Assembly: GCA_965232285.1 (NCBI GenBank)
Contig: CBDDPL010000004.1
Span: forward strand, 1,623,893-1,687,892
DNA length: 64,000 bases
Source of the DNA: Denitrobaculum sp.
GTDB taxonomy: Bacteria > Pseudomonadota > Alphaproteobacteria > Kiloniellales > Kiloniellaceae
Direction of reading: 5' to 3'
Every line of letters starts with the position of its first letter. Positions within the stretch are counted from its first letter, which is position 1. Positions 5,364 to 39,486 of this stretch are shown one piece after another. Both the position numbers and the translations under genes were made by a program. Below the pieces are notes generated by a model that worked only from the letters and a program-made list of their open reading frames with translations, made no database searches and was not told the origin of the DNA.

Positions 5364-5485
5364 AGCCTTTCCCAGAGCCTTTCTCCAAGCCTTTGCCCTT
5401 GGCGCCCGGCGGCCGCGGTCTGTAAGATCGAAGCCGCCGTCGGCCTGACGGCGCAATCTCTCAATCGCCAAAGGGTCTCGCCTCT

Positions 5486-6247
5486 ATGTCGGCCGAGTCA
5501 GATCTCAATTCCAGCGTCACCGCCTGCCTTCTCATCATCGGTAACGAGATACTCTCGGGCCGGACGAAAGACGCAAACCTCGCGTTCCTGGGCGAAAAGC
5601 TGAATGAAGCCGGCGTACGCCTGATGGAGGCGCGAGTCGTTCCGGATATCGAGGACGTCATCGTCGAAACTCTGAACGGGGTGCGCGGCCGCTTCGACTA
5701 CGTCTTCACGACCGGCGGCATCGGACCGACCCATGACGACATCACTTCGGCTTGCGTGGCCAAAGCCTTCGGCGTCGCCTGGAGCCTGCACCCCGAGGCC
5801 CATGCCTTGCTCAAGGCCCACTATGCGGAGGGCGAGCTCAACGAGGCACGCCTGCGCATGGCGCATACGCCCGAGGGCGCTTCTCTGATCGAAAATCCGA
5901 TCAGCAAGGCGCCGGGGTTTCAGATGGGCAACGTCTTCGTCATGGCGGGCATCCCCAAGGTCATGCAGGCGATGTTCGAAAGCCTCAAGCCGCGTCTGAC
6001 CGGCGGCGCCCCGGTGCGAAGCGTGACCCTGGCGGTTTCCCTTCCCGAGGGCGTCATTGCCGCGGGCCTTGGAGCGGCCCAGGAGCAGTATCCGGATGTG
6101 GAGATGGGCAGCTATCCCTATCGCACTGGTGACCGCTTCGGCGTGCGCCTTGTCTTGCGATCCGTCGATGTTGCGCGTCTTGAAGCGGCCGTCGAGAAGG
6201 TTTCGGCTCAGGTTCGCGAACTGGGGGACGAGCCCCGGCGCGAGTAG
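5486..6247 (+). CDS. molybdopterin-binding (CinA N-terminal / MoCF_biosynth type) domain protein
   Basis: LLIIGNEILSGRTKDANLAFLG and TTGGIGPTHDDIT motifs. Confidence 0.8.
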   Translation: MSAESDLNSSVTACLLIIGNEILSGRTKDANLAFLGEKLNEAGVRLMEARVVPDIEDVIVETLNGVRGRFDYVFTTGGIGPTHDDITSACVAKAFGVAWSLHPEAHALLKAHYAEGELNEARLRMAHTPEGASLIENPISKAPGFQMGNVFVMAGIPKVMQAMFESLKPRLTGGAPVRSVTLAVSLPEGVIAAGLGAAQEQYPDVEMGSYPYRTGDRFGVRLVLRSVDVARLEAAVEKVSAQVRELGDEPRRE

Positions 6248-6286
6248 CGGCCCGCCGGGATTACCTGCTCGACTTACCCGCCCGGC

Positions 6287-6646
6287 TTACTCAAAAATCG
6301 ACAGCTTCAGGGGCATCTGCGTGCCCAGCCAGATGGCATGGTCCCTGTGGTCCGCCAGATGATCGCCCGTCTCTGTATGGGTGAAGATGGTCAGGCCGTC
6401 CCGGTTGAGTGCGAGCCAGGGCAGGATCTCACCCAGAAGCTCAGCGCTGTAGGCGACCTGGTAGCTGCCGGTCGGATGAGGACCGATCGGGTTGTCGTGC
6501 CAGCGTCCCATCTCGACGGTAAAACGCGCCTCGATCGCTTCGCGTAAATCCGCGGCGCGCGCCTTCGAGCCGGCGTCGTAGTAGACGTGCGAGTGATAGC
6601 CCGTGATTGACGAAATGCTCTTAGTTTTCTGGTCGTTATCGTTCAT
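6287..6646 (-). CDS. DOPA 4,5-dioxygenase (DODA, COG3805) family protein
   Basis: 119 aa. YHSHVYYD ... GPHP pattern recalled from this small family; call from memory of family motifs only. Confidence 0.6.
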   Translation of the reverse strand: MNDNDQKTKSISSITGYHSHVYYDAGSKARAADLREAIEARFTVEMGRWHDNPIGPHPTGSYQVAYSAELLGEILPWLALNRDGLTIFTHTETGDHLADHRDHAIWLGTQMPLKLSIFE

Positions 6647-6723
6647 TTTTCAGTTGATTCCTTTGGGCGGATCCACCGGCCTTTAACCCCTTGGCAAGAT
6701 CCGGCGCGTAGGCTTGAGATGTT

Positions 6724-6986
6724 ATACCAAGGGTCGACAATATTGCACCGCAGGGACAGTTTTCTGAGGTTTTCGGCCAGGAACGCGGGGCGAAGCGATG
6801 CGGTGCATCGGAAGCCGCGCGTGACGCAGTCCGAAAGCCTCAGAAAACTGCCGTTCCGGTTGTCTACAGGGACCTTCGGAGGGCGTCGAAAAGCCTAACC
6901 GATGTGCCGCATCGCCTGCGGCTCTTCTCCTACCCGAAGGTCCCTGGAGACAATCCCTGCGGTGCAATATTGTCGACCCTTGGTAT
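6724..6986 (+). repeat. 263-bp structured element with perfect 33-bp terminal inverted repeats enclosing two ~20-bp hairpins (MITE/RIME-like element or structured ncRNA)
   Basis: 6724-6756 is the exact reverse complement of 6954-6986. Stem A is 6757-6776/6831-6850 (20 bp, one G-U). Stem B is 6861-6879/6934-6952 (19 bp, one A-G). The 54-nt loops carry 17-nt complementary segments 6795-6811/6899-6915. Intergenic between DODA and PilZ genes. Confidence 0.75.
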
Positions 6987-7062
6987 TGGCAAGGATTTTC
7001 CACCGGAAGTGACGTCACTCCGGGCAACAGCTTTCTATATAGATACGGCAGATCGCAGATTC

Positions 7063-7392
7063 ATGACCAGAAAGACCAATCTCGGGCAAAAGGACGAACG
7101 GCGGCGGTTTCCGCGTGTGAGCACGTCGCTGTCTGTGAACCTCCAGGTCGAAGATGGTGAGCGCGTCACCTGCAGGGTGCTGGATGCTTCGGTCAGCGGC
7201 GTGAAGGTGACGGGAGACAAGGCTTTGCCGATTGGTTCCGACGTCACCTTGATTATGCCCGGATCCGTCCACTTCGGCGGCCGGATTGTGCGGCATCAGG
7301 GTGATACCATGGGGATCGAGTTTGCGCTGGCGCCGGAACGGGTTGCTGAAATGATCACCGACCTTCTGCCAGGCCTGCAGGCCATGCGGTAA
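7063..7392 (+). CDS. PilZ domain protein
   Basis: RRFPRV...DASVSGVKV...G motif set (RxxxR and D/NxSxxG) of c-di-GMP-binding PilZ domains. Start moved to ATG 7063 so that the CDS does not cross the inverted-repeat element. Confidence 0.8.
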   Translation: MTRKTNLGQKDERRRFPRVSTSLSVNLQVEDGERVTCRVLDASVSGVKVTGDKALPIGSDVTLIMPGSVHFGGRIVRHQGDTMGIEFALAPERVAEMITDLLPGLQAMR

Positions 7393-7463
7393 AGCGGGCG
7401 CTCATCCTACAAACGCACGATGTTCCTGTACCCGATGTTCCTGCAAAGGCTTGAGTCGGAAAA

Positions 7464-7497
7464 CGGGAGCCTACCAGATGGCGGCTCCCGCTTTTTC
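7464..7497 (+). terminator. rho-independent terminator after PilZ gene
   Basis: 8-bp GC stem CGGGAGCC/GGCTCCCG (7464-7471 / 7483-7490) followed by CTTTTT. Confidence 0.55.
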
Positions 7498-7908
7498 GCT
7501 TCTTGTTCCCGAGGTAAAGCCGTGCCAGTGATTTGCACTTTCAACTCAGCTTAACTTCGAATTCCGAACCCGGCCTTGAGCCTGACGCGCAACTCAATGT
7601 TGCACTGAGTGAATTGGACGACAGTCCTCCAGGAGTCGCCGCACAGGCACTGCGGCGGCTATTTCGTCACCGGTTTTCCAGTAACGCAGGGCAGTATACT
7701 GCGCTTTTTCCGGCTTCTTTGTCAATATACTTAAGATTGTAGAGGTCGTTGTTTACAATTTTTGGTAACCATTTTGTCATATTTCCCCGCGCGGATTGAT
7801 TGAAGAGAGCGGATGAAAGGGCCTGTTCCGGCTGGGCGAAGAGGTGCTAAAAACACAACCACCAAGATAACACAGAGCAAAATCTGTCAGGATGTGGTAG
7901 GGTTAACC

Positions 7909-8175
7909 ATGCTGACCTTGAATGAACTCGCAATTCATAAAGCCCGGCTCCTGAGGGGCGAGGGCGAACACGATGAAGCCAGGATCGCGGAGCTGGACCG
8001 CCTGATTATCGGACAGCATGCGGTTAATCTCGATGACGCGATCATAAAGCTCGAACTGGCGCGCGAGATGGCGCATACGCTCGATCATTCGGTGGATCGC
8101 GATTACAGAGAAATCGAGGAACTCGCGGAAATCGTTACCCTCATCGACGATGTCCTGCGCGTCTTGCGGCATTAA
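7909..8175 (+). CDS. small hypothetical protein (88 aa, helical)
   Basis: ATG 7909 inside ORF 7813..8175. Charged helical sequence, no recognised family. Confidence 0.4.
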   Translation: MLTLNELAIHKARLLRGEGEHDEARIAELDRLIIGQHAVNLDDAIIKLELAREMAHTLDHSVDRDYREIEELAEIVTLIDDVLRVLRH

Positions 8176-8314
8176 GGCTCAGTTTTTCTTTTAAATCAGT
8201 GCTTTGAGCTCGTTTTCTGAAGCCGGGTCTGGCTTTCTCACCGACAGCTTTACACGCTACCGCGAAGCTTTCACCATGGGACGTTGCTGAAGGCCCCTGG
8301 AGGGAGTGTCCTGT

Positions 8315-27801: not shown

Positions 27802-28092
27802 ATGAGCGCGTCCGGCGCAGAGTCGTTCCTCGACCGCCCTGTTGCCCGCCTGACCGCGCTGGGCGTGGCGGGAGTCGTCATCGCCCTGTTGCTCTACATC
27901 AACCGTGCCGACCTGCTGCCCGGCGCCGAACCCGAGCTCTCGCCGGCCGAGGCGGCATATCGGGCCTGCGTCACGGAACGCCACGGCCAGATCGACGGCA
28001 TGATCGCGGAGGGCGTCGTGAACGAGTCCCAGGCCGCCAGCTTCAAGGCACGCGCGGAGGCCCTTTGCCGGGCGACGGCACCGGCAAACTAG
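27802..28092 (+). CDS. small membrane-anchored hypothetical protein
   Basis: One TM helix (LTALGVAGVVIALLLYI) and a helical tail with two Cys. The stop codon lies inside the first unit of the 31-bp tandem repeat. Confidence 0.5.
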   Translation: MSASGAESFLDRPVARLTALGVAGVVIALLLYINRADLLPGAEPELSPAEAAYRACVTERHGQIDGMIAEGVVNESQAASFKARAEALCRATAPAN

Positions 28093-28175
28093 AACGAGCC
28101 GGGCGACGGCACCGGCAAACTAGAACGAGCCGGGCGACGGCACCGGCAAACTAAAAACGCGCCGGGCGACGGCAC
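28068..28175. repeat. 31-bp tandem direct repeat, about 3.5 copies
   Basis: CCGGGCGACGGCACCGGCAAACTAGAACGAG at 28068-28098 and 28099-28129 (identical). A variant copy is at 28130-28160 and a partial copy at 28162-28175. Confidence 0.9.
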
Positions 28176-28211
28176 GTTGAAGCTAAGAATTCAAATCGAC
28201 GAGACGGAATC

Positions 28212-29333
28212 ATGACCGAGACCAGCGCTGTGCAGATCGAAACGGCCGAGGTGATCCTGCCCTGTAGCGACCTGCCGGCCACCATGGCCTTCTTCAACGA
28301 CCGGCTGGGTTTTCGTCTGGACGCCATCTTCCCGGCGGACGATCCTGCGACCGCGGTGATCTCCGGCCACGGCCTGCGCATTCGTCTCTCGCGCGGCGCC
28401 GAACTTGAGCCTGGTCAGGTCACTTTGCGCTGTGCCGACCCAAGGGCGGTGGCTGACGGCGAGACCGAGCTGACCGCACCCAACGGCACCCGCATCGAAC
28501 TGTTGGAGGCCGATCCGCCGCTGGCCCTGCCGCCGATCGACCAGTCCTTCTTGGTGACCAAACTGGATGGCAGCGGTGCCTGGGGCACCGGCCGCGCGGG
28601 CATGCAGTACCGCGACCTGATCCCGAACCGCCAGGGCGGCCGCTTCATCGCCTCCCACATCGCCATCCCCGACGGCGGCCTGGTGCCCGATATGGTGCAC
28701 TTCCACAAGGCGCGCTTTCAGATGATCTACTGCTACAAGGGCTGGGTGCATCTCTTGTATGAGGACCAGGGCCCTCAGTTCACCATGAAGGCCGGCGACT
28801 GCGTCCTGCAGCCGCCGGAGATCCGCCACCGCGTCCTGGAATGCTCCCCCGGCTTCGAGGTCATCGAAATCGGCTGCCCCGCCGATCACATGACCTGCAT
28901 CGATCATGACATGCCACTGCCGAACGGCAGGGTGGATCCGGATCGGGTCTTTAGCGGCCAGCGATTTGTGCGGCACCAGGCGGACAAGACGGCCTGGCAG
29001 GCGGGGCGTCTGGAAGGCGTCGAGGTTCGAGACATCGGCATCGCCGCCGCGACGGACGGTCTGGCGAGCGCGCAGGTCTGGCGGTTGGGGGAAGGCGTGA
29101 CCAGCGTGCCGGCGGTCAAGCATGCGGCGGAGTTTGTGTTCTACTTTGTGTTGGAGGGCTCGGTGACCCTGAAGGCCGAAGGGCAGGGGACGCAGGCTTT
29201 GGGGGCGGGGGATAGCTTCGTGATTCCGGAGGGGATGGTCTTCGGGATGGAAAGGGTGTCGGAGGATCTGGAGTTGCTGGAGGTGGCGTTACCGGCGGGG
29301 TATGGCTTTGAAATTGCTGACGTTTCGCTCTGA
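28212..29333 (+). CDS. cupin-domain protein with N-terminal glyoxalase/VOC-like fold
   Basis: N-terminal LPCSDLPATMAFFNDRLGFRLD (VOC-like). Two cupin-like beta-barrel segments (e.g. EFVFYFVLEGSVTL...GDSFVIPEG). Confidence 0.7.
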   Translation: MTETSAVQIETAEVILPCSDLPATMAFFNDRLGFRLDAIFPADDPATAVISGHGLRIRLSRGAELEPGQVTLRCADPRAVADGETELTAPNGTRIELLEADPPLALPPIDQSFLVTKLDGSGAWGTGRAGMQYRDLIPNRQGGRFIASHIAIPDGGLVPDMVHFHKARFQMIYCYKGWVHLLYEDQGPQFTMKAGDCVLQPPEIRHRVLECSPGFEVIEIGCPADHMTCIDHDMPLPNGRVDPDRVFSGQRFVRHQADKTAWQAGRLEGVEVRDIGIAAATDGLASAQVWRLGEGVTSVPAVKHAAEFVFYFVLEGSVTLKAEGQGTQALGAGDSFVIPEGMVFGMERVSEDLELLEVALPAGYGFEIADVSL

Positions 29334-29424
29334 ACAGGTTTTGGCGTCCCTCCAAAACACTAGCGCCATTACTCCGATCCAAGTCACCCTCCATCTTGAG
29401 TTTATCCTTTGGAGTTGCGCTTGG

Positions 29425-30723
29425 TTACTCCTTTTTTAGTCTGCTACTCACCCTGATCTCGATGCGACGCAGGTCCCGATTGTCAACATTCCGTTGCCTG
29501 GCCGCGATTTTGTAAGTCGTTGGCTGAAGCTGACCGGCGGAGTAGGGCACAATCGGAACTGTGCTGTACTCACCACCGAGTTGATTACGTAAGAAGTTGG
29601 CGGTGATTGCGGCGCGAGATAACCCCAACCCTGCGTTGTCACAGGCCCTCAATGATAATGATTTCTTTTTTTTGTTCAAACCCCTAGTGAGATGCTGGTT
29701 GAGATAGGGAACGAGATTGTGGTCCAGATCACTGGTACATTTCCATTTACCTCCGCTTTTGTACGGCAGGCCATCAGTATGACCAATTACTTCAATGACG
29801 GCTTGGGCGCCATTCTTTGTAATCTTTTTTATTTCATTAATAACAGCAGTCCTTCCCGCGACGCGTCGTTTCCCATCTAAGGACCAGCCGCTTATGAAGG
29901 TTCTCCGAAAGTCAGACGAGATTGAAGATTCGCTGCGTTGGAATGTGTATCCATCCTTGTCTGTTAGAAACAGCGATGTGGGCTGGTTAACTCTGGGAAT
30001 GCACTGCGCTGGATCTGGGCCGCAATTGGTTTTGTACTTGCCGAGTTCTACATCAGCTTTACCGGCCTCAGCCTTTGGGACGCAACCTGTCCGATCGTTG
30101 CCGCAGAGGTCGACAAATTCCTGAAGACGTTTTTCGAGATTCCGATGGTCTTCGAGCGACACGCAACCGTCGACCGTGGTGCCGCAAAGAAAGATGAACT
30201 CGTCCAGGTCATTTCTGACGGAATTGTGCTGTGAAATTTCTCTACAGTCATCCGGTGCGTTACCGCAGCGCTCAATAAATCGTTGGAGGAGGCCCTTAAG
30301 GTTTCGATAATCTTCCTCGGGCACACAGCCTTCCGTCGTCGGACCACAAAGAGAAATGAAATTGTCCAGTTCATTCTTCACTAAACTGTATCTTGGCAGT
30401 CCTACGCATTTGTCCGGTGTGCCGTCACAAAGTTTGTTGAAGATCTTGAGGGCAGCCGAAACACTGTCGTGTTCACTGCGTTCCACACATTCATCACCAT
30501 CTTTGCCGCATTTTTCAATCAAGTGGGCGAACTGCTCGATGCCTACGCACTTCTCTGGATCTTCGCCACAGGCTGCGCTGTATTGTTCCGCCAGCAATCC
30601 TTCGGTTGCCCAGACACTGCCGAGAAGGATTAGGCAGAAAAACAGAAAGAACAGGACAATTTCGCTCAGCGAAGTTGCAACGACATCCTCGTGATGACGT
30701 TTCTTAAAACGCCCTAGTCTCAT
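29425..30723 (-). CDS. MotB/OmpA-like protein: N-terminal TM helix with embedded Glu, eight C-x6-C repeats, C-terminal OmpA-type peptidoglycan-binding domain
   Basis: TM SLSEIVLFFLFFCLILL (Glu21). Repeats CGEDPEKC, CGKDGDEC, CDGTPDKC, CGPTTEGC, CGNAPDDC, CGTTVDGC, CGNDRTGC, CGPDPAQC. OmpA blocks VIGHTDGLPY, NAGLGLSRAAITANFL, DLRRIEIRV. Confidence 0.8.
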   Translation of the reverse strand: MRLGRFKKRHHEDVVATSLSEIVLFFLFFCLILLGSVWATEGLLAEQYSAACGEDPEKCVGIEQFAHLIEKCGKDGDECVERSEHDSVSAALKIFNKLCDGTPDKCVGLPRYSLVKNELDNFISLCGPTTEGCVPEEDYRNLKGLLQRFIERCGNAPDDCREISQHNSVRNDLDEFIFLCGTTVDGCVSLEDHRNLEKRLQEFVDLCGNDRTGCVPKAEAGKADVELGKYKTNCGPDPAQCIPRVNQPTSLFLTDKDGYTFQRSESSISSDFRRTFISGWSLDGKRRVAGRTAVINEIKKITKNGAQAVIEVIGHTDGLPYKSGGKWKCTSDLDHNLVPYLNQHLTRGLNKKKKSLSLRACDNAGLGLSRAAITANFLRNQLGGEYSTVPIVPYSAGQLQPTTYKIAARQRNVDNRDLRRIEIRVSSRLKKE

Positions 30724-32648
30724 GGTTCGTTCCTCAATCTAAGCCAACGGAGAAAACGCCGTGCTGCCCGCCCCAGCCGTGAGGAACGCTCGCTTTCCGC
30801 GCCATCCTTATTTTCTGCTTCTGTGAACACACGAAATTCTGACATCATCTTCTCAAGCGATGTACGCAGTTCGGCTAGATTGGCTGACAGGTCGGTTAAC
30901 TTGTCGCTGTGGACCTTTAGCCAATCTGGGTCGAATGCGGTGCCAGAGAGTTCTTGCGTGAGCCGACCGAAACCTTCGGTCACCAACTTCAGCGCTTCCT
31001 GGTTTGTGCCGAGGGCGTCGGAATACTTAGTAAACTCCTTGCTCAGGCGTTTTACGTCTTCGGCGTTCCCGCCAATCGCAGCATTGGTATCGCCGAAAGT
31101 CTTCACCAGTTCTTCGAGGCTTTGGTGGATCCGCCCGCTGTCTTCGGATATCCCGATGACTACCCGGTCGATAGCTCGCCCAAACTCGGCGTTGAATTCC
31201 TCGAAGGCGTTCGTGCCAATCTTCTCCGCCAAGTCCTGAAAACCGGAATCAACCCTGGTCCCACCGCTCTCGATGACATTGGTCAGGCTATCGATGGCTT
31301 GCTTGCTGTTCTCGCCGCCAGTCTCCAGGGTTGCCTTCAGGCGCAACAACTCGTTGCCAAGCTCACCTTTGCCGCTATCAATGGCGCCTTTGAGGTCGCT
31401 CAGTGAGGAGCCAGCGCCTTCTGTGTGATTGACGATCGTCTCCTGGAACCCGGTCAGCGCTGCCGCACTGCTCTGCGCGCCTTCGGTTATTGTATCGGCA
31501 AGTTCGCGCAGTTCGTCGGCAACAGCCTTCGCGCGCTCAAGTACCTCTTCGCGTCGTGTCCTTAGGGCCTCGCCGAGCGCCGTGATCTCCGCATCGACGC
31601 GCGCCAAGGCGAGCTTAGCCGCTTCTGCCATCTGCTTTGCGATCAGCTTCTGATCTATCTCGACGTTGGAAATTTCCTGCGCTTTGGTCTTCAAGTTGCC
31701 GGCCACTTCGCCAACAGCGTCCTTTATCACTTGGCCGGAACCGGAAACCGCTTTCTTTGTGTGGTGCACTGTGGTCCGGAAAGTTTTGACGCTTATTGAC
31801 AGCGTATGAAGTTCGGCGGTTGCCTTGTTAACATGCTCCCGGAGAGTGGCGATAATCTGCTCGTCGTCGACGTCCTCTTGGGCGGTGATTGAGAGAACAA
31901 GTACCTGACGAAGGAAGAGCGCAAAAACCGTTGATGAGAGGGCAATAGCATTCTGCATGACAACTGTCGACAGAGTGACACCGGCGAAACGGCCGGACTG
32001 ACTTAGCGCAAAAATCAGGCTTATCAGAGTCAGAATAAAGCCAAAAAAGTAAATCGAATCGGCCCATTTCCTCTGAGCCTCTGGTCCTTGGTTAGGAAAC
32101 AAAAGAAATATAGTGTGTATTACTTCAAATAAGATGTTTGTGCGGGGTAAGTAGCGATTTACAGGCTGTCGAAGTCGGCATATAGATAAATAGCTAAAAT
32201 ACAGTAAAACAAAAATCCCATTCGCAACCGTTACCCTAAATATATCTGATGTTATTATTTGTCCCTCGAAATGCCTTCTGAGCTTTTTATCGTCTAGTTT
32301 TTTTTGTTCATGAGGGTTTTTTAAGTCATCTGGTAAAGGTATGCCGGCATCGGAATACTTTTTTGTAAGTTCAAAATTCGTGAGATCCTTTTTGTCGATC
32401 TGCAACGCATTAAATGTAGAATAGATAGCTTCTGAAATCGGTTTCTGTTCAACTATGTCGGCATAGAAGATGCCAGATACTTGTGGTCCATCCGGATCGG
32501 TTGTTGCTGGTAGTTGAGCGTAAAAGTTGTATGTTGCGGCAAATCCAACAAAAATCATGAAAATCAGAGTGAGAACACACGCGGCGCCTGTACTCTCTCT
32601 GGGGGGGGCGTTTGCACCACTCACTGATGGTGAATCTAAAGCTGTCAC
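30720..32648 (-). CDS. MotA/ExbB/TolQ-like membrane protein with ~390-aa C-terminal coiled-coil tail (ZorA-like architecture)
   Basis: TM helices at about aa 22-43, 138-157, 171-185, 198-216 and 224-254. SIYFFGFILTLISLIFAL ... QNAIALSSTVFALFLRQV resembles the conserved helix pair of the MotA/ExbB channel. The tail is A/E/K/L/T-rich. ATGA overlap with the downstream gene. GTG start uncertain. Confidence 0.7.
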   Translation of the reverse strand: MTALDSPSVSGANAPPRESTGAACVLTLIFMIFVGFAATYNFYAQLPATTDPDGPQVSGIFYADIVEQKPISEAIYSTFNALQIDKKDLTNFELTKKYSDAGIPLPDDLKNPHEQKKLDDKKLRRHFEGQIITSDIFRVTVANGIFVLLYFSYLSICRLRQPVNRYLPRTNILFEVIHTIFLLFPNQGPEAQRKWADSIYFFGFILTLISLIFALSQSGRFAGVTLSTVVMQNAIALSSTVFALFLRQVLVLSITAQEDVDDEQIIATLREHVNKATAELHTLSISVKTFRTTVHHTKKAVSGSGQVIKDAVGEVAGNLKTKAQEISNVEIDQKLIAKQMAEAAKLALARVDAEITALGEALRTRREEVLERAKAVADELRELADTITEGAQSSAAALTGFQETIVNHTEGAGSSLSDLKGAIDSGKGELGNELLRLKATLETGGENSKQAIDSLTNVIESGGTRVDSGFQDLAEKIGTNAFEEFNAEFGRAIDRVVIGISEDSGRIHQSLEELVKTFGDTNAAIGGNAEDVKRLSKEFTKYSDALGTNQEALKLVTEGFGRLTQELSGTAFDPDWLKVHSDKLTDLSANLAELRTSLEKMMSEFRVFTEAENKDGAESERSSRLGRAARRFLRWLRLRNEP

Positions 32649-32952
32649 AGCGAAATAGCCAAAGTTGCATTTTAAGAAAGACAGGAACGCTAATGGCGAA
32701 TCGATGTGTTGGCAACCCCTTTTGCTTGAATATATTAGATTGGCAATATTCTATAAGTTGCTAAATTTAAGTTAGAACTGGCAAGTGAAGTTGATTGTTT
32801 GTGCCGCTGGCTGTCCTGACGACTTTGTAAGCTCTACGTTTTTCGATTTGCGGTAAACGGCTAAGCACGCTCTGATTTGCTACAATCTGGGATGTTGGAA
32901 TCTGCTCAGTCGGAATCTGCTGCCAAGTCGTCACAAAGATTCCTTGGGTCCT

Positions 32953-33208
32953 TAATTTTCTGATGTATAATTCATTGGCACGAAGATAATAAAATTAAAA
33001 ACTTTGGATAATTTTTTTATTTATTTTTTCATGAATAATAATTAAAACAATATATAATAAATTATTTAATTGTATTTCATAAAATTATTGAATTTTCCGA
33101 AATATTACATCTTAATAATTTGATTTGATGTGGATTTGACAGAATTTTACTAATTTTAAAGTAAATATATGTATTTTCGATAAATATAAATTTTAACAAA
33201 TTTTAATT
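32953..33208. other. extreme AT-rich tract (~250 bp, about 85-90 % A+T by eye)
   Basis: TTAATTTTCTGATGTATAATTC...AATAAAATTAAAAAC...TAAATATAAATTTTAACAAATTTTAATT. Lies upstream of the ZorA-like operon. Confidence 0.85.
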
Positions 33209-33340
33209 GCTGGCTTTCTTGTTTTTGCGATCTTTGCTTTTTTGACGTTCTTCATAGCTTTCGGCTAAATACAGCGCTAGCAGAAAGGGAGCTGCAATCA
33301 ACACCATCAACAAGAAGGGGTTGGCCAAAATACTCATCAT
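33203..33340 (-). CDS. possible 45-aa membrane peptide
   Basis: Not in the ORF track (<60 aa). ATGATG start preceded by GGAAGGATTGAGG. Translates to MMSILANPFLLMVLIAAPFLLALYLAESYEERQKSKDRKNKKASN: one TM helix plus a basic tail. Confidence 0.35.
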   Translation of the reverse strand: MMSILANPFLLMVLIAAPFLLALYLAESYEERQKSKDRKNKKASN

Positions 33341-33552
33341 CAACCTCAATCCTTCCGATCACCAAAGTTGTAGAAAACCAAACAGATGTACTTGTTGTTT
33401 GCTAACATCGCGTTAAGATTGTGCAAGATATTCGATATATATTTGAATCAATTTTTTGCTATTTTACTTATTATAAAATACCACGCTTAGCGTATTAGTA
33501 AATACGCTTCTGAATATTGTCCCAGAAAGAACACAACTCGCTTGAGTGGGTT

Positions 33553-33616
33553 GGGGTCCGGTCTTGTTTTGTGCATAAGCGGTGCTGAAAAATGAAGGAA
33601 ACAAGATCTGGCCCTA
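33553..33616. repeat. palindromic junction element, copy a
   Basis: Left arm GGGGTCCGGTCTTGTTTTGTGC, spacer with CTGAAAAA, diverged right arm GAAACAAGATCTGGCCC. Confidence 0.7.
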
Positions 33617-33651
33617 AATCTCTGTCAGAGTGAGCAGTCTTTCCCGGCTTA

Positions 33652-33957
33652 CTAGAAACCATCAAGCAGAACGAAGATCGGCAGGAAGATGGTCATCATA
33701 GCGCCCATGACGTATAAGCCGCCGATGTAGGTCCAGAAGAGGCGCGGATTTTTGCTTCTGTAAATCCAGGCGCCGCCCGATCCGGGAGACGCGAAACCGC
33801 GCTTGATGTCGCGCAGCCCAATGAAAATGACGGATACACCCAGCAGCACGGGGACGGGCAACGCCCAGATGGTCTTGAGGTAGAGAGGGAAGAACTCCTG
33901 CAACAGACAGCCGTAGGCCAGGGCCGCGCAAAAGGAGATGAGGAAAAACTTAAACAT
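33652..33957 (-). CDS. 101-aa three-TM membrane protein, copy 1
   Basis: MFKFFLISFCAALAYG...; three hydrophobic helices. About 94 % identical to the product of 39058..39363. Confidence 0.65.
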   Translation of the reverse strand: MFKFFLISFCAALAYGCLLQEFFPLYLKTIWALPVPVLLGVSVIFIGLRDIKRGFASPGSGGAWIYRSKNPRLFWTYIGGLYVMGAMMTIFLPIFVLLDGF

Positions 33958-34082
33958 GGCGGCGCTTCCCAGGGTTTAGACGGCTTGCAGCGGGGTGACT
34001 GTCGATCCGTGCAGCTTTGTCAGACCTTTGCGCAAAAGCCCTTCGAACGACTTCTTTACCGCATTGTCTTGAATTGTATGTG

Positions 34083-34176
34083 CCTGTGGGGTCAGGTCTT
34101 AAATTGTGCCTGTGGGGTCAGGTCTTAAATTATGCGCAAGCGAAGTTGAAAAAGCACAAAACAGGACCTGACCCTA
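34083..34176. repeat. palindromic junction element, copy b (left arm tandemly duplicated)
   Basis: 26-nt unit CCTGTGGGGTCAGGTCTTAAATT(G/A)TG x2 (34083-34134). Spacer AAGCGAAGTTGAAAAA. Right arm GCACAAAACAGGACCTGACCC (34154-34174). Confidence 0.8.
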
Positions 34177-34306
34177 GATCTCCATTCGCCACGCGCACGG
34201 ACCAGGGCTGGCTGCCGCCCTCCGCGAAGGATGTCGACGCGGTGCTGGCGGAGCACGCCAAGGCGACCGAAGCATAGCAGGGGGCGCCGGGTCCTGTGCT
34301 TGAGCG

Positions 34307-35026
34307 CTAAGTGAGTTGGCGTAAGGCCGACCTGCGCCGCCGCACGAAGCCGAGGCCCGCGAGACCGAAACCGAAGAGCGCCAGCGTGGCTGGTTCAGGC
34401 ACGGCGGCGATGTCAGGAATGTCGACGAAATCCGGCACCGAAGGATCAATTCTGACCTGCTGTAAGGCGAGTGTCGCGTTATCGTCCAGGTCGAACAGAA
34501 CGTTGTTAAAGTGGATGTCGAGAAAGCCGAGGCCGGGGGCCAATCCCGCCTGTTTCTGGCTGACGTCAAAACGCCAGGTCAGTATGCCGGCGTCAAGCAG
34601 CACAGGCCGATCAAAGATGTTGTCAGCGAATACAGAAACGTCGGGGGCGCCGCCATCGAGGCCGGTGAACAGCAGATCGCCATCCTCCCGTGGCCAAGTT
34701 ATTTCCGCATTGTTGCTCGTCGTCGCGAAGGTGAGCGTGATTTCCCAGGGATTTGGCGGGGGCGGAAAGCCGGGGAAGGGCGGGGGGCCAAAACCAGGAT
34801 CGCTCAACACGATGCGTGGGCCGAAAAGGATATCGATATCTGTCGTGGCGGTGCCAGTGGCATTGAGTGGAATAACGCCTGCACCTCCATTGACGTCGAT
34901 GCAGGTAGCGCTGCCGTCACAGGCAGCGACGGAAACATCGTCGGGGGTGAGAGTCAGCGCATGGGTTGCCGAGGCACCGCATAGCAGGAAGATGCTAGTA
35001 AAGCCTAATGCAAATAACCGTTTCAT
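34307..35026 (-). CDS. PEP-CTERM sorting-domain secreted protein
   Basis: Signal peptide MKRLFALGFTSIFLLCGASATHA (start ATG 35026). C-terminal VPEPATLALFGFGLAGLGFVRRRR = PEP motif + TM + basic tail. Confidence 0.8.
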   Translation of the reverse strand: MKRLFALGFTSIFLLCGASATHALTLTPDDVSVAACDGSATCIDVNGGAGVIPLNATGTATTDIDILFGPRIVLSDPGFGPPPFPGFPPPPNPWEITLTFATTSNNAEITWPREDGDLLFTGLDGGAPDVSVFADNIFDRPVLLDAGILTWRFDVSQKQAGLAPGLGFLDIHFNNVLFDLDDNATLALQQVRIDPSVPDFVDIPDIAAVPEPATLALFGFGLAGLGFVRRRRSALRQLT

Positions 35027-35270
35027 AATGTGAACCCTCCAGTTATTTGTTTGTAGGCTATTGATGCTTGCCGGCGCCGTCATTCCTCGAAATTCGAATA
35101 GGGCTATACAGGATTTTTGCAACGCTTTGGCGCAAGCGATGGGAGCCCGCGTGAATGAGCGGGACTATCCACAGGCGGAGCTTTGTTTCCGCGCTGCGGC
35201 CGCCATTGGAACGCGCAGGCGCCGATCAAGGATCTCTTCTGATCGAAACAAGCAGCGCAAGGAGCAGGAG

Positions 35271-35782
35271 TCCGCCGCCGGGTCCTGGAATGCTCCCCCG
35301 GCTTTGAGGTGATAGAGATCGGCTGCCCCGCCGACCACATAACCTGTATCGATCATGAGATGCCGTTGCCCAACGGCAGTGTGAACCCGGATCGGGTGTT
35401 CGATGGGCAACGCTTTGTGAGGCATGACGCGGACAAGGCGGTCTGGCAGGCGGGGCGTCTGGAAGGGGTCGAGGTAAGGGACATCGGGATTGCCGCGGCG
35501 ACCGACGGCCTGGCGAGCGCGCAGGTCTGGCGCTTAGGGCCGGGGGTGACTGCTGTGCCGGCGGTGAAGCATGCGGCGGAGTTTGTGTTCTATTTCCCGC
35601 TGGAGAGGACGGCGACTCTGGAAGCCGAAGGGCAGAGGGCGCGGGCCTTGGGCGTTGGTGATAGCTTCGTCATTCCGGACGGCATGGTCTTTGGAATCGA
35701 GTGTACGTCGGAGGATGTGGAACTGCTGGAGGTGGCGCTTCCGGCAGGTTACTCCTTCGATCCCGCCGACCCGCGGATCTGA
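35271..35782 (+). pseudogene. 5'-truncated paralogous copy of the 3' end of the cupin gene
   Basis: Collinear with 28822-29333. The product of ORF 35309..35782 is about 80 % identical to the C-terminal 157 aa of the 373-aa cupin protein. No N-terminal two thirds present. Confidence 0.75.
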
Positions 35783-36062: not shown

Positions 36063-38276
36063 TTAGTGCAGCGTTGTTCCTTTGGAGTGGTTCTGCATCA
36101 CCGCTTCCCGCGTATTGGTTTCTCTGGTGTCACCTTGGTCGCGGATTACTGGTGAACCTTGATTGGGTGCAGTCTGCTGGTCGGGATCAGTGCTTCTGAG
36201 TGCTATGGGTTCATTCCGGGGCATGAGTTCCAGATTGGGCTTCAAGCGCAGTTGGAGCGACCCGTCCTCCAGCTGCAACGGCGGCGGCATGGTGGGGTGT
36301 ACAGCTTCCCATTCGCTTGCTTTGTAAATGTCCTCCAAAGAGGTGGCTGAGCGCGCCAGAACGAAGTCTTCGGGCTTGGGAAGGCTTTCGGAGAGCACCC
36401 ATACAAAGGGCATTATGATGCCGGTCTGTTTCCAGAGAGCATAGCCTTTATGCGGGCCGTCTTTGAGAATTTCGATCCCGGCGCTTTCCATGTACTCGCG
36501 CATGGAAAGGTGCTGGCCGTTCGGCATCATCCAACGGGTGCCAAAGCGTAGCATGGTCTTATCGCCGACGCGCTCGCTGCCCGTACTGTCCTCGTAAAGC
36601 TTGAAGGCCCAAAACTCCTCGTCATCGGGCGAGCCTACTTCACAGCCTGTGGTGGCGCGAACCAGGGTGCCGTCCTGACGCTGGATGACGCCATCGTCGC
36701 GCAAAATATCGATGATAGGGACGTGCTGACCCTCGTACTTGCCGCCCGCGCACCAGTAAACGTGGCCGGGCGTGACGAAAGTTCCGTGGAGATCAAGAAT
36801 GATCTTCGCCTCGTTGGTCATCGTCCGAGTAACGTTGCCGGGCTTGAGGTTGCCCTGAGCGTCGAAGGCGACAACCGTGTCGGTTGGTGTGATTTCTTCG
36901 ATGGCCTTCTGCCAGATATTAGCTCGCACCGCCGCCTCGTCATATAGCCCGTCCGGTCCCGGTCTGATCGAAGAGTCCAGCGGCCACATATCGATCATCG
37001 TACCGGCCGTGAAGCAGTGCGAAATAGGTATGATTTTGAGCTCATCACCGTCGGCGACAACGGTATACTCACCCTCTTTAAACTCCAACTCGTTTTCAGC
37101 GTAGGATTTATAAAGGTCGACGATATCGTCTAAAACAAGCGGGTTCCCACCATTCGCATTGTCTTGGAGCAGTTTAACCGCCCCTGCACCAAATTCTGCT
37201 CCTGCGTTGCCGCCGATCGTACCTCCGAGATAGGCGATCACGGCAAGTGTGGCTATCCCACCCGCTGTTGTCAGCGGTTCCGGCGCAGCCACTGCAAGGG
37301 CTGCCGCTGTGGCGACCCAAGTGCCGACTGCGGAACCAGCCAAATCCCCAAATGTACCGAATATGAGCTGTTCTGCGCCCGCCTCATTGCCGGCAACATA
37401 CAATTGCCGGGCCTCCTCGAAGGCAAAGGCCACGTGCAACACATCTCCTACAACCCCTGCCGCACTCAAGACGCGAGCGTTGCCTAGAATGTTGCCGAAT
37501 GTAGCCGGTGTTAAATTGAGATCTGCGATCCTATTTTCGAGTGCAAGATTCTCGAACCTTCTTACGGTAGAAAGCCTGCCGGCATAGCCTGTAACTTTTA
37601 AGCCGTCAAAGAGCCAGGCCGAGGCGAAAGTCTTGAAGTTATTAGCAACTGCGTTGTAACGGTCCGTTTCGCTAGTAAAGCCGTCACGAACTTCAATCCG
37701 GTCAATGCCGTTGATCTGATTAACGGCCGTATTATTCTTCAAAGTCTCGAGTTCAATTGACCGGAGATATGAACCTGTCCCCGCGCCCTCTGTGAGAACC
37801 ATAACATCGCCCGAAACATTCTCGGCGAAGCGTTGCGAAGAGATCCAACCCATGTCGCCGCGTTCACCCTTCCACCGCGGATCTTCCCCTTTCGACCAAT
37901 CCACACCCGTGATGACTTGCTTGTTGTCTTGCGACATTTGGATAGCGTCTTCGACGTCCGTGCTGTTTATAAACTGGCCGAGTTCGGTGTCGTCCAAGCG
38001 TTGAAACACAGTCGGATTAGTGTTCGCCAAGTCTCTGGCGGTTTTCCATGCCTCTGCTTCGTGGCCTCTTAGGCGCCTGTATGGGTTCGACCCCGCATAG
38101 AATAGCGGTGTTACACCGCTTGGGAGATCTACAGAGAGGTTGCGCACCGCCAGTTCGTAGAAGTTGCCGTCCAGGTAATCACCGGCGGCATTTGCGTCTC
38201 TTACGACGTCGAGCACTTCGCTCACAGTCGCCTTTGTCCAGTCAGGGATTCTGCCGCTGTAATCGAACTCCGCCAT
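36063..38276 (-). CDS. Hint (Hedgehog/intein-like) domain protein with glycine-zipper hydrophobic segment; polymorphic-toxin-like
   Basis: Hint N-terminal block HCFTAGTMIDMW (Cys421) and TPGHVYW block. aa 300-365 are G/A-rich and hydrophobic (GTFGDLAGSAVGTWVATAAALAVAAP...LGGTIGGNAGAEFGAGA). N- and C-terminal domains not recognised. Confidence 0.85.
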   Translation of the reverse strand: MAEFDYSGRIPDWTKATVSEVLDVVRDANAAGDYLDGNFYELAVRNLSVDLPSGVTPLFYAGSNPYRRLRGHEAEAWKTARDLANTNPTVFQRLDDTELGQFINSTDVEDAIQMSQDNKQVITGVDWSKGEDPRWKGERGDMGWISSQRFAENVSGDVMVLTEGAGTGSYLRSIELETLKNNTAVNQINGIDRIEVRDGFTSETDRYNAVANNFKTFASAWLFDGLKVTGYAGRLSTVRRFENLALENRIADLNLTPATFGNILGNARVLSAAGVVGDVLHVAFAFEEARQLYVAGNEAGAEQLIFGTFGDLAGSAVGTWVATAAALAVAAPEPLTTAGGIATLAVIAYLGGTIGGNAGAEFGAGAVKLLQDNANGGNPLVLDDIVDLYKSYAENELEFKEGEYTVVADGDELKIIPISHCFTAGTMIDMWPLDSSIRPGPDGLYDEAAVRANIWQKAIEEITPTDTVVAFDAQGNLKPGNVTRTMTNEAKIILDLHGTFVTPGHVYWCAGGKYEGQHVPIIDILRDDGVIQRQDGTLVRATTGCEVGSPDDEEFWAFKLYEDSTGSERVGDKTMLRFGTRWMMPNGQHLSMREYMESAGIEILKDGPHKGYALWKQTGIIMPFVWVLSESLPKPEDFVLARSATSLEDIYKASEWEAVHPTMPPPLQLEDGSLQLRLKPNLELMPRNEPIALRSTDPDQQTAPNQGSPVIRDQGDTRETNTREAVMQNHSKGTTLH

Positions 38277-38924: not shown

Positions 38925-39022
38925 CGAATCACCAGGGTCAGGTCTTGTCGAATCACCAGGGTCAGGTCTTGTATTGTGCGTGAACAGAGTTGAAAAAAGG
39001 CACGAAACAAGATCTAACCCTA
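38925..39022. repeat. palindromic junction element, copy c (left arm tandemly duplicated)
   Basis: 24-nt unit CGAATCACCAGGGTCAGGTCTTGT x2 (38925-38972). Spacer with GTTGAAAAAA. Right arm GCACGAAACAAGATCTAACCC (39000-39020). Confidence 0.8.
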
Positions 39023-39486
39023 AATCTCTGTCAGGCTGAGCGGTCTTTCCCAGCTTACTAGAAACCGTCGAGCAGAACGAAGATCGGCAGGAAGACGGTC
39101 ATTATAGCGCCCATGACGTATAAGCCGCCGATGTAAGTCCAGAAGAGGCGCGGATTTTTGCTTCTGTAAATCCAGGCACCGCCCGATCCGGGAGACGCGA
39201 AACCGCGCTTGAAGTCACGCAGCCCGATGAAAATGACGGATACACCCAGCAGCACGGGGACGGGCAACGCCCAGATGGTCTTGAGGTAGAGAGGGAAGAA
39301 TTCCTGCAACAGATAGCCATAGGCCAGGGCCGCGCAAAAGGCGATGAGGAAAAACTTAAACATGCCGGCGCTCCCCAGGGTTTAGACGGCTTGCAGCGGG
39401 GTGACTGTCGGTCCGCGCAGTTTTGTCAGACCTTTGCGCAAAAGCTCTTCGAAAGACTTCTTTACCGCATTGTCTTGAATTGTATG
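38958..39486. repeat. 0.53-kb direct repeat, copy 2 (contains 101-aa gene copy 2)
   Basis: Collinear with 33553-34080. Confidence 0.85.
39058..39363 (-). CDS. 101-aa three-TM membrane protein, copy 2
   Basis: Differs from copy 1 at about 6 of 101 residues. Confidence 0.65.
   Translation of the reverse strand: MFKFFLIAFCAALAYGYLLQEFFPLYLKTIWALPVPVLLGVSVIFIGLRDFKRGFASPGSGGAWIYRSKNPRLFWTYIGGLYVMGAIMTVFLPIFVLLDGF

What the first reader, a model, noticed from the sequence alone, without database searches (positions are those of the whole stretch)
29425..32648. Orphan ZorA/ZorB-like (MotA/MotB-type) stator pair with long coiled-coil tail and no recognisable effector
Two minus-strand genes are translationally coupled by an ATGA overlap at 30720-30723. 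The 642-aa upstream product has an N-terminal TM helix, a ~100-aa loop, and then a TM bundle. The last two helices of that bundle (SIYFFGFILTLISLIFAL ... QNAIALSSTVFALFLRQV) follow the pattern of the MotA/ExbB/TolQ proton-channel family. A ~390-aa A/E/K/L/T-rich helical tail follows. The 432-aa downstream product has one TM helix with a membrane-embedded acidic residue (SLSEIVLFF, Glu21 where MotB/ExbD carry Asp). It ends in an OmpA/MotB peptidoglycan-binding domain (VIGHTDGLPY, NAGLGLSRAAITANFL, RRIEIRV). An ion-channel subunit with a very long cytoplasmic tail plus a PG-anchored partner is the architecture of ZorA/ZorB in Zorya anti-phage systems. Here nothing resembling ZorC/ZorD/ZorE (helicase, nuclease, HNH) follows; the operon ends against a convergent cupin gene. 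No flagellar, Tol-Pal or TonB genes are nearby. The pair sits in visibly lower-GC DNA behind an extreme AT tract. It could be a minimal two-gene Zorya-like envelope sensor with an unknown or remote effector, or a different stator-driven machine.
Basis: partly seen in the sequence, partly recalled or inferred. Interest (0 to 1): 0.85.

Follow-up and report, generated by a model that had tools for sequence, protein, structure and literature searches.

The report
Orphan Zorya-like membrane motor gene pair
Two overlapping genes in a foreign-looking DNA segment encode a membrane protein with a long inner tail and a cell-wall-anchored partner; they are a stripped-down member of a large, unnamed family that distantly resembles the Zorya anti-phage motor and usually travels with a nuclease gene.

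Summary
Both minus-strand ORFs exist (A, 642 aa, 30720-32648; B, 432 aa, 29425-30723) and overlap by ATGA. A has four TM helices and a ~395-aa helical tail. B has one TM helix with a Glu and an OmpA/MotB-like C-terminus.

Remote evidence still points one way:
- Two AlphaFold models have TolQ/ExbB or type II ZorA as their best PDB matches.
- One family member hits ZorA2 models across its TM domain.
- The tails hit ZorA tail models.
- B relatives hit OmpA, PomB, TssL and ZorB.

A belongs to a large unnamed family (2817 clusters at 50% identity). Its usual form in alphaproteobacteria is a four-gene operon, X-Y-A-B. A thermonuclease gene sat next to it in 7 of 10 loci and an HNH-type nuclease in one more. 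It often lies on rhizobial plasmids or beside Gabija, HipA or transposases.

The window pair is a rare AB-only form. It has no X, Y or nuclease, and it sits in a ~6 kb low-GC segment bracketed by a duplicated cupin gene half.

Verdict: a new variant of the Zorya/5:2-motor kind. Motor function and defence role are inferred, not shown.

The parts
30720..32648 (-). Gene A: 642-aa inner-membrane protein. It has four TM helices, a ~90-aa loop between TM1 and TM2, and a ~395-aa helical cytoplasmic tail. It is a ZorA-like subunit of an unnamed family.
   Evidence: ORF. TM scan. AF2 model with pLDDT 72. Scores 31 bits, E=9e-6 at Z=1e6, against a family HMM built without it or its close relatives. Foldseek top hits are TolQ/ExbB. 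Tail hits to ZorA models.
31893..32243 (-). Conserved TM2-TM3-TM4 core of A (about residues 136-252). Family-invariant residues are Y150, D197, Y200, G203, F204, T207, L208, L211, A236, T240 and R247. T207 and T240 lie 33 residues apart on the TM3/TM4 hairpin.
   Evidence: Alignments A3 and A5. The hhalign register puts YYMGFLFTL on TolQ PYIGLFGTV and AIATTIAGI on ALIATAIGL.
30720..31892 (-). Helical tail of A (about residues 253-642).
   Evidence: NCBIfam ZorA_1 5.9e-7 (A residues 432-606 on profile positions 392-566) and PADLOC ZorA1 4.5e-5. A family profile hits the ZorA tail of 8qyd_A at 3.2e-6, but also apolipoproteins and chemoreceptors.
32601..32608 (-). G8/C8 homopolymer inside codons 13-16 of gene A.
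   Evidence: It is the only G or C run of 7 or more in the 64 kb window.
29425..30723 (-). Gene B: 432-aa bitopic protein. It has a short cytoplasmic N-terminus (RHHEDVV), a TM helix with Glu21, a Cys-loop repeat stalk and an OmpA/MotB-like C-terminal domain.
   Evidence: ORF. TM scan. Homologues. Family-level OmpA hits in 13 of 16 members, best 3.4e-7. PDB profile hits to the TssL PG-binding domain (9.5e-4) and PomB (0.012).
30001..30570 (-). Periplasmic stalk of B: eight CGxxxxxC loops, mostly 27 aa apart (residues 52-241).
   Evidence: The same repeat occurs in P0003 (9 units) and P0004 (12 units). Other B relatives have a coiled coil in its place.
29425..29985 (-). OmpA/MotB-like domain of B (about residues 247-432), with GHTD, DNAGLGLSRA and RRIEIRV motifs.
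29303..35263 (.). ~6 kb low-GC segment that carries the pair. It is bracketed by a direct repeat of the cupin gene 3' half (28814-29302 and 35264-35751, 81.6% identity).

Best explanation
A and B most likely assemble into an inner-membrane complex of the ZorAB/MotAB type. A ring of A subunits would surround the TM helices of a B dimer. B would be fixed to the peptidoglycan through its OmpA-like domain at the end of a long, disulfide-rich periplasmic stalk. Ion flow past the invariant Glu21 of B and the invariant Thr207/Thr240 of A would drive, or gate, movement of A and its ~395-residue cytoplasmic helical tail.

Shown:
- the gene pair and its coupling;
- the topology and the conserved residues;
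- membership of a large family;
- that family's usual X-Y-A-B-plus-thermonuclease layout, and its placement among mobile and defence genes.

Inferred:
- the 5:2-type assembly, the ion conduction and the rotation;
- that the family acts in phage or mobile-element defence, with the nuclease as effector.

In this genome the pair is a horizontally acquired AB-only derivative. It would act as an envelope-linked sensor/transducer with no effector in cis. It may signal through its tail to something encoded elsewhere, or act on its own.
For: Pair and conservation:
- ATGA overlap and conserved A-B adjacency in every relative examined.
- Glu is invariant in 29 of 29 B relatives. It sits where MotB, TolR and ExbD carry Asp, 3-4 residues into the TM helix.
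- B C-terminal domain: Pfam OmpA in 13 of 16 relatives; PDB hits to TssL-PGBD and PomB; ZorB1 at 2.5e-7 for L011 B; rhizobial relatives are annotated 'OmpA family protein'.

A fold:
- The window A model has TolQ/ExbB as its top 13 Foldseek hits out of 350,542 chains (E 0.07-0.9).
- The high-confidence family model (pLDDT 88) has type II ZorA 8vvi_C as top hit (E 0.015, prob 1.00, TM 0.60 on the target). MotA and PomA are also in the list.

A sequence:
- Family member L027 A hits PADLOC ZorA2 across its TM region (9e-6, residues 48-261 on profile 18-233).
- The tails hit ZorA models 3 orders of magnitude better than the next family in NCBIfam, Rad50 at 8.4e-4; the margin over LmuB in PADLOC was smaller, 4.5e-5 against 2e-3.
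- hhalign picks the expected register, though not significantly.

Defence reading of the family:
- An orthologous thermonuclease lies next to X-Y-A-B in 7 of 10 loci, and an HNH/GmrSD_C nuclease in 1.
- Gabija, Shango, HipA, CHAT and transposases are neighbours.

Foreign origin of the window pair: GC3 0.53-0.55 against 0.83, and the bracketing cupin repeat.
Against: - No Pfam MotA_ExbB or OmpA hit for the window proteins.
- NCBIfam ZorA scores 28 bits against a cut-off of 190, and only in the tail.
- hhalign against a 16-sequence ExbB/TolQ/MotA alignment gives P=0.057, probability 1%.
- The family HMM gives ~0 bits for E. coli TolQ, ExbB and MotA.
- All Foldseek E-values are above 0.01, with low TM-scores on the query.
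- The tail profile also hits apolipoproteins and chemoreceptors, so part of the ZorA tail signal is compositional.
- Glu replaces the Asp that the Zorya structure paper calls universally conserved (PMC11946911).
- A has four TM helices, not the three of ZorA, and lacks its membrane-proximal cytoplasmic domain.
- The window and the AB-only loci hold no nuclease, X or Y, and the window has no defence genes nearby.
- No experiment bears on any of this.
Confidence: 0.55

Rival explanations
1. Decaying remnant. The pair is what is left of a five-gene nuclease-X-Y-A-B system after X, Y and the nuclease were lost during or after horizontal transfer, and it no longer does anything useful.
For: - X, Y and the nuclease are absent from the whole window.
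- The pair lies in a mosaic low-GC segment with duplicated gene fragments and short repeats, and no mobility genes.
- A G8 tract sits in the 5' end of A.
- There is no clear RBS at the A start.
Against: - Both ORFs are intact and keep every family-invariant residue.
- The AB-only layout recurs in five independent loci: window, L001, L002, L010 and L011. These share a distinct A signature (KWADSIYFFGFILTL, QNAIALSSTV). That argues for a stable two-gene form rather than repeated decay.
- The B stalk repeat is regular and conserved in P0003 and P0004.
Confidence: 0.15
2. Passive envelope tether or scaffold, not a motor. B anchors to peptidoglycan. A is a membrane-embedded coiled-coil protein that organises or senses the envelope without ion-driven movement. 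The resemblance to stators would then be convergence of small helical hairpins.
For: - No significant sequence or profile link between the A TM core and MotA/ExbB/TolQ.
- Foldseek E-values are not significant.
- The long B stalk is unlike ZorB. Stalks are 100-250 aa of coiled coil or Cys loops.
- One relative, L027 B, has no OmpA-like domain.
Against: - A membrane-buried invariant Glu in B (29 of 29) and invariant polar Thr residues in the two adjacent A helices are hard to explain without ion or proton chemistry.
- The best structural matches in the whole PDB for two independent models are all 5:2 motor subunits.
- L027 A shows a ZorA2 TM-region hit.
Confidence: 0.2
3. A is a chemoreceptor-like signalling protein, as some database annotations of its homologues say ('methyl-accepting chemotaxis protein').
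For: - JGI and PGAP give this name to some A homologues.
- The family tail profile hits the chemoreceptor cytoplasmic domain 2ch7 at 2e-6.
- The ZorA tail itself is reported to resemble the chemosensory core unit (PMC11946911).
Against: - No Pfam MCPsignal or HAMP hit at E<=1 for A.
- No periplasmic ligand-binding domain in most family members.
- No che genes nearby.
- The obligate partner is an OmpA-like protein.
- The tail hits are shared with apolipoproteins and designed helical bundles.
Confidence: 0.03

Closest known systems
Zorya ZorA/ZorB (types I-III), the anti-phage 5:2 motor (PMC11946911)
   Same: - The two genes are adjacent and coupled.
- The A-type subunit has a TM hairpin carrying Thr/Ser, followed directly by a very long cytoplasmic helical tail.
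- The B-type subunit has a single TM helix with an acidic residue and a peptidoglycan-binding OmpA-like domain.
- Relatives sit with nucleases and in defence islands.
- The best Foldseek hit of the family model is type II ZorA.
- Best PADLOC hits of family members include ZorA models (top for the window A, L011 A, L002 A and L027 A) and ZorB for L011 B; P0002's best was LmuB, and the window B, L010 A and L010 B had none.
   Different: - No MotA_ExbB Pfam domain, and far below the NCBIfam ZorA cut-off.
- Four TM helices instead of three, and no membrane-proximal cytoplasmic domain.
- Glu instead of the Asp described as universal.
- B carries a 100-250-aa stalk, whereas the ZorB PG-binding domain starts right after the TM helix.
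- Partners are X, Y and a thermonuclease, not ZorC/D, ZorE or ZorF/G.
- The window pair has no partners at all.
MotA/ExbB/TolQ with MotB/ExbD/TolR (Pfam PF01618 with PF00691 or PF02472)
   Same: - The spacing of two conserved Thr residues on adjacent TM helices is 33 residues, as for TolQ T145/T178 and ExbB T148/T181 (the residue numbers are from my own knowledge; the sequences are).
- The acidic residue lies near the cytoplasmic end of the B helix.
- The GHTD..PY, N..L...RA and RR.E motifs are shared with MotB.
- TolQ and ExbB are the top Foldseek hits for the window A model.
   Different: - Not detectable by HMM or HMM-HMM comparison.
- No flagellar, TonB or Tol-Pal context.
- A long tail is present.
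- The acidic residue is Glu.
T6SS TssL (long form) and other OmpA-like anchors
   Same: The best PDB profile hit of the B C-terminal domain is the TssL PG-binding domain (9.5e-4). NCBIfam type_VI_ompA gives a weak hit for a relative.
   Different: B lacks the cytoplasmic DotU domain of TssL. There are no T6SS genes nearby.

Membership tests
MotA/ExbB/TolQ proton channel family (Pfam PF01618) | Significant match to the MotA_ExbB profile | tested here: not met
   No hit at E<=1 for the window A or for the relative L007 A at E<=0.1, and no precomputed Pfam domain for any A-family hit. hhalign of the family core against a 16-sequence ExbB/TolQ/MotA alignment gives P=0.057, probability 1%. E. coli TolQ, ExbB and MotA score ~0 bits on the family HMM.
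MotA/ExbB/TolQ proton channel family (Pfam PF01618) | Fold of the TM hairpin region like solved 5:2 A subunits | tested here: inconclusive
   Window A model: the top 13 PDB hits are TolQ/ExbB, but E is 0.07-0.9 and TM-scores are 0.14-0.31. Family model (pLDDT 88): top hit is ZorA 8vvi_C at E 0.015, prob 1.00, TM 0.60 on the target; MotA and PomA have E>0.6.
MotA/ExbB/TolQ proton channel family (Pfam PF01618) | Conserved polar Thr/Ser on the two helices that line the B-subunit acidic residue | tested here: met
   T207 and T240 are invariant or nearly so in alignments of 15-145 sequences. The hhalign register places them on TolQ T145/T178. Whether they face Glu21 was not tested.
5:2 ion-driven rotary motors | A5B2 stoichiometry and ion-driven rotation | not testable with these tools
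   Only single-chain structure prediction was available, and there is no experiment.
Zorya (ZorA) | Match to ZorA models above the curated cut-off, covering the TM domain | tested here: not met
   NCBIfam ZorA_1 scores 28.1 bits against a cut-off of 190, tail only. PADLOC ZorA1 at 4.5e-5, tail only. A TM-region ZorA2 hit was seen only for the relative L027 A (9e-6).
Zorya (ZorB) | Conserved Asp in the TM helix | tested here: not met
   The position holds Glu in 29 of 29 B-family proteins.
Zorya (ZorB) | C-terminal OmpA-like peptidoglycan-binding domain | tested here: met
   Met at family level: 13 of 16 relatives hit PF00691 (best 3.4e-7), with hits to PomB, TssL-PGBD and ZorB1. The window B itself gives no Pfam or PADLOC hit, but it keeps all 16 invariant columns of the domain alignment.
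Zorya (system) | Adjacent effector genes ZorC/ZorD, ZorE or ZorF/ZorG | tested here: not met
   None is in the window. Relatives carry X, Y and a thermonuclease, none of which hits PADLOC Zor models.
Unnamed X-Y-A-B family (this work) | A core with the D-x-x-Y-x-x-G-F-x-x-T-L ... S-T ... R signature, next to a B with a TM Glu | tested here: met
   The window A scores 31.3 bits (E 9e-6 at Z=1e6) on an HMM built without the window-like subfamily. The family has 2817 clusters at 50% identity with E<=1e-3. For B.
Unnamed X-Y-A-B family (this work) | Upstream X (~450-500 aa polytopic) and Y (~260-280 aa) genes, plus an adjacent nuclease | tested here: not met
   tblastn of X, Y, SNase and HNH proteins against the window finds nothing.

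The most novel reading that the evidence does not exclude
The pair represents a fourth, undescribed branch of ion-driven envelope motors. It would use a membrane Glu instead of Asp and a four-helix A subunit. Its full form (thermonuclease-X-Y-A-B, common on rhizobial plasmids) would be a new Zorya-like anti-phage or anti-plasmid system. The AB-only form seen here would be a free-standing envelope sensor whose tail recruits effectors encoded elsewhere, such as the neighbouring Shango or ABC/vWA modules seen in L011 and L001.
Probability: 0.3. Interest if true: 0.8.

Novelty: new variant of a known kind. Interest (0 to 1): 0.62.

Why it matters
Zorya is one of the few defence systems that couple the cell envelope to cytoplasmic effectors through a rotary motor. 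Only three effector sets are known for it.

The family found here is large (2817 clusters at 50% identity). It is absent from Pfam (2025), NCBIfam (2026) and PADLOC (2023). In public records its members are called 'hypothetical', 'OmpA family' or, wrongly, 'methyl-accepting chemotaxis protein'.

If it is a motor, three things follow:
- It shows that the ZorAB design tolerates Glu for Asp, a fourth TM helix and a long periplasmic stalk.
- It pairs that design with a different effector, a thermonuclease.
- It offers a natural two-gene minimal form in which to ask what the tail does without a cis effector.

If it is not a motor, the invariant buried Glu and Thr residues still mark an unstudied membrane machine that is common in plant-associated alphaproteobacteria.

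Tried and rejected
- Pfam, NCBIfam and PADLOC on the window proteins gave no domain-level hit.
- PDB sequence search with small and large A-core profiles found no MotA/ExbB/TolQ. One ZorA (8vvn_C) appeared at E 0.54 once the tail was trimmed.
- phmmer of L027 A against the PDB found nothing relevant.
- hhalign against E. coli TolQ+ExbB or MotA alone gave spurious short matches. Against a 16-sequence alignment built from plasmid ExbB/TolQ genes, it gave the right register but was not significant.
- A viral-contig scan found no family member. A control scan with TolQ/ExbB was also empty, so that collection says little.
- A plasmid tblastn with the A N-terminal 300 aa gave no match.
- Source organism: exact-sequence look-ups returned no names, and the look-up of encoding contigs found neither P0001 nor B. 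Only 'a 6.9 Mb contig in NCBI/ENA' is known. An alphaproteobacterium is inferred from the relatives.
- X of L001 (490 aa) is not detectably related to X of the four-gene operons.
- The chemoreceptor reading was rejected: no MCPsignal or HAMP domain and no che genes.
- A T6SS TssL reading of B was rejected: no DotU domain and no T6SS genes.
- No literature on Zorya-like variants of this kind was found.


Full report
**1. Observation**

Both ORFs are there as described. A lies at 30720-32648(-), is 642 aa and has a GTG start. B lies at 29425-30723(-) and is 432 aa. They overlap by ATGA.

A has four hydrophobic helices, at about residues 20-42, 136-157, 198-216 and 229-252. About 395 residues follow that AlphaFold and DSSP call helical. 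B has one TM helix (22-40) with Glu21 at its cytoplasmic end.

The pair is compositionally foreign. GC is 0.50-0.51 against 0.60 for the window, and GC3 is 0.53-0.55 against 0.83 for the adjacent cupin gene.

It lies in a ~6 kb segment bracketed by a direct repeat of the 3' half of the cupin gene (28814-29302 and 35264-35751, 81.6% identity). The segment also holds an extreme AT tract, a 101-aa TM ORF inside a second 528-bp repeat, and a PEP-CTERM gene. No integrase, defence gene, flagellar gene, Tol-Pal gene or TonB gene is nearby.

The public annotation starts A at Met231 and so removes all TM helices (P0001). The N-terminal region including TM1 is conserved in the one close homologue (36% identity over residues 26-608), so the long ORF is right.

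**2. Direct family tests**

Pfam gives no MotA_ExbB hit for A and no OmpA hit for B at E<=1. NCBIfam and PADLOC give only ZorA hits confined to the tail: 28 bits against a cut-off of 190, and E 4.5e-5.

**3. Relatives of B**

B has 16 relatives in 5.8 billion clusters. They share three features:
- the N-terminal motif (R/H)ED(I/V)V..S.SE(I/V).LFFLFF;
- a variable middle, either Cys loops or a coiled coil;
- a C-terminal domain with the motifs EVIGHTD, DN.GLG..RA and RRRIEIR.

Thirteen of the 16 C-terminal domains hit Pfam OmpA, the best at 3.4e-7. The domain profile finds the TssL PG-binding domain (9.5e-4) and PomB (0.012) in the PDB. L011 B hits ZorB1 at 2.5e-7. Rhizobial plasmid homologues are annotated 'OmpA family protein'. 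The motifs line up with E. coli MotB (GHTDDFPY, NWELSADRA, NRRISL).

The TM Glu is invariant in 29 of 29 B-family proteins examined. This includes one relative, L027 B, whose C-terminal domain is not OmpA-like.

The window B stalk is eight CGxxxxxC loops, mostly at a 27-residue period.

**4. Relatives of A**

By word-seeded search A has a single true homologue. It is P0002, encoded next to the B homologue P0004.

A profile of the TM2-TM4 core shows that A belongs to a very large family. An exhaustive HMMER scan finds 2817 clusters (50% identity) at E<=1e-3 and 1930 at E<=1e-10. None of the hits for which precomputed Pfam results were shown carries a domain.

An HMM built without the window-like sequences still scores the window A at 31 bits (E 9e-6 for a million sequences). 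E. coli TolQ, ExbB and MotA score about zero on it.

Family-invariant residues are a Tyr in TM2, D..Y..GF..TL in TM3, and A...T......R in TM4.

**5. Is A a MotA/ExbB/ZorA-type subunit?**

The sequence evidence is weak:
- hhalign against my own 16-sequence ExbB/TolQ/MotA alignment finds the register expected by eye. YYMGFLFTL falls on PYIGLFGTV and AIATTIAGI on ALIATAIGL, so the two invariant Thr residues fall on TolQ T145/T178. But P is 0.057.
- A tail-trimmed profile finds one ZorA chain (8vvn_C) with TM4 aligned to ZorA TM3, at E 0.54.

The structural evidence is concordant but also weak:
- The window A model (residues 1-330, pLDDT 72) has TolQ or ExbB chains as its 13 best hits among 350,542 PDB chains, at E 0.07-0.9.
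- A confident model of a typical member (P0074, pLDDT 88) has type II ZorA from Sulfuricurvum as its best hit (E 0.015, probability 1.00, TM 0.60 on the target). MotA and PomA follow further down.

There is one bridge. L027 A is a clear family member (55 bits). It hits three PADLOC ZorA2 models across its TM region, the best at 9e-6 with residues 48-261 on profile positions 18-233.

The tails of several members hit ZorA tail models. In NCBIfam the window A's ZorA hit was 3 orders of magnitude better than the next family, but in PADLOC the margins were smaller, and for P0002 LmuB scored better than ZorA. The tail profile also hits apolipoproteins and chemoreceptors, so part of this signal is compositional.

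I judge a distant ZorA/MotA-type relationship likely (about 0.7) but not demonstrated.

**6. Context in relatives**

The common form is a four-gene operon with overlapping genes:
- X, ~450-500 aa, polytopic with coiled coils;
- Y, ~260-280 aa, with one TM helix;
- A;
- B.

It is seen in Mesorhizobium, Rhizobium, Chthonobacter, Sinorhizobium, Microvirga and metagenomes.

A thermonuclease gene lies immediately beside the operon in 7 of 10 loci. These nucleases are orthologous to one another (41-62% identity). An eighth locus has a GmrSD_C/HNH nuclease instead.

Neighbours include Gabija (GajA 3e-272, GajB 4e-203), HipAB, a CHAT protein, DUF4041 and IS elements. Many loci are on conjugative or mobilizable rhizobial plasmids.

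X and Y hit nothing in Pfam, NCBIfam or PADLOC.

**7. The window-like subfamily**

The subfamily carries the A signature KWADSIYFFGFILTL / QNAIALSSTV and is rare:
- 185,579 species genomes yielded three loci;
- the JGI metagenome collection (241 million records) yielded no further AB-only locus, its single hit being the four-gene locus L027;
- Logan assemblies yielded one locus.

In this subfamily the pair stands without X, Y or a nuclease. The settings are:
- alone among metabolic genes in Aestuariicoccus;
- between transposases, a serine recombinase and a tyrosine integrase in a Paracoccaceae MAG;
- directly downstream of a complete Shango system in a Rhizobiaceae MAG (SngA 2e-88, SngB 3e-172, SngC 5e-241);
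- downstream of a vWA protein, an ABC-type ATPase (PADLOC mad3, 7e-31) and a TM protein in L001.

The AB-only form is therefore recurrent, not a one-off deletion.

**8. Mechanism**

The best-supported reading is a ZorAB-like complex. A subunits would surround a B dimer. B would be fixed to the wall through its OmpA-like domain on a long stalk. Ions would pass Glu21 and Thr207/Thr240. The A tail would act as the cytoplasmic output.

In the full systems the thermonuclease is the natural effector candidate. X and Y are unknown accessory membrane parts. In this window the output partner, if any, is not in cis.

All steps beyond gene content, topology and conservation are inference.

**9. Differences from known systems**

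- Glu replaces the Asp that the Zorya structure paper calls universally conserved (PMC11946911).
- A has four TM helices rather than three, and no membrane-proximal cytoplasmic domain.
- B has a 100-250-residue stalk.
- The accessory genes are different.

The library of papers holds nothing on Zorya-like variants of this kind.

**10. Verdict**

The finding is best filed as a new variant of the Zorya/5:2-motor kind, and as a reduced, horizontally acquired member of a large unnamed family.

Most of the interest lies in that family (nuclease-X-Y-A-B) and in the invariant Glu. The window pair itself is an intact but effector-less offshoot.

Noticed in passing
window 32601-32608: A G8 run (C8 on the coding strand) lies inside codons 13-16 of gene A. 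It is the only G or C homopolymer of 7 or more in the 64 kb window, and could be a slipped-strand on/off switch.
   Followed up: partly
window 30720-32648: The public annotation (NCBI/ENA protein P0001, 412 aa) starts gene A at Met231 and so cuts off all four TM helices. Conservation of TM1 in P0002 shows the longer ORF is the real one.
   Followed up: yes
window 28814-29302 and 35264-35751: The 3' half of the cupin gene is repeated at 81.6% identity, leaving a truncated 157-aa cupin ORF at 35309-35782. The two copies bracket the ~6 kb low-GC segment that carries the pair. This looks like the scar of an insertion, but no integrase is present.
   Followed up: partly
window 33554-34080 and 38959-39486; short copies at 34089, 34115 and 41054 (inverted): A 528-bp repeat (92.8% identity) carries a 101-aa two-to-three-TM ORF with no Pfam hit. 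It is edged by GGGTCAGGTCTT-type short repeats that recur in direct and inverted orientation, which is MITE-like.
   Followed up: no
window 28067-28191: Four tandem copies of a 31-bp unit (GCCGGGCGACGGCACCGGCAAACTAGAACGA) lie just upstream of the cupin gene.
   Followed up: no
window 30001-30570 (B residues 52-241): Eight CGxxxxxC loops, mostly 27 aa apart, form the periplasmic stalk of B. P0003 has 9 units and P0004 has 12. All other B relatives have a coiled coil in this place.
   Followed up: partly
window 34307-35122 and 36063-38276: A PEP-CTERM protein (271 aa) and a 737-aa protein with a Hint-like CFTAGT motif but no Pfam hit lie next to the segment. Neither is linked to the pair in relatives.
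   Followed up: no
L028 (pRL11 of Rhizobium johnstonii 3841) 3063-8218; also L006, L007, L029-L032: A conserved module of thermonuclease plus X, Y, A and B occurs on rhizobial plasmids and chromosomes. A is annotated 'hypothetical' or 'methyl-accepting chemotaxis protein', and one X is annotated 'DMT family transporter'.
   Followed up: partly
L011 3298-12010; L027 1383-12940: A complete Shango system (SngABC) lies directly upstream of an AB pair in L011. In L027, a GmrSD_C/HNH nuclease, an X-Y-A-B operon, a resolvase and Gabija (GajAB) lie side by side.
   Followed up: partly
L027 6021-6953: This B homologue keeps the TM helix with the invariant Glu, but its C-terminal domain has none of the OmpA-like motifs. 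The anchor domain therefore appears to be exchangeable.
   Followed up: no
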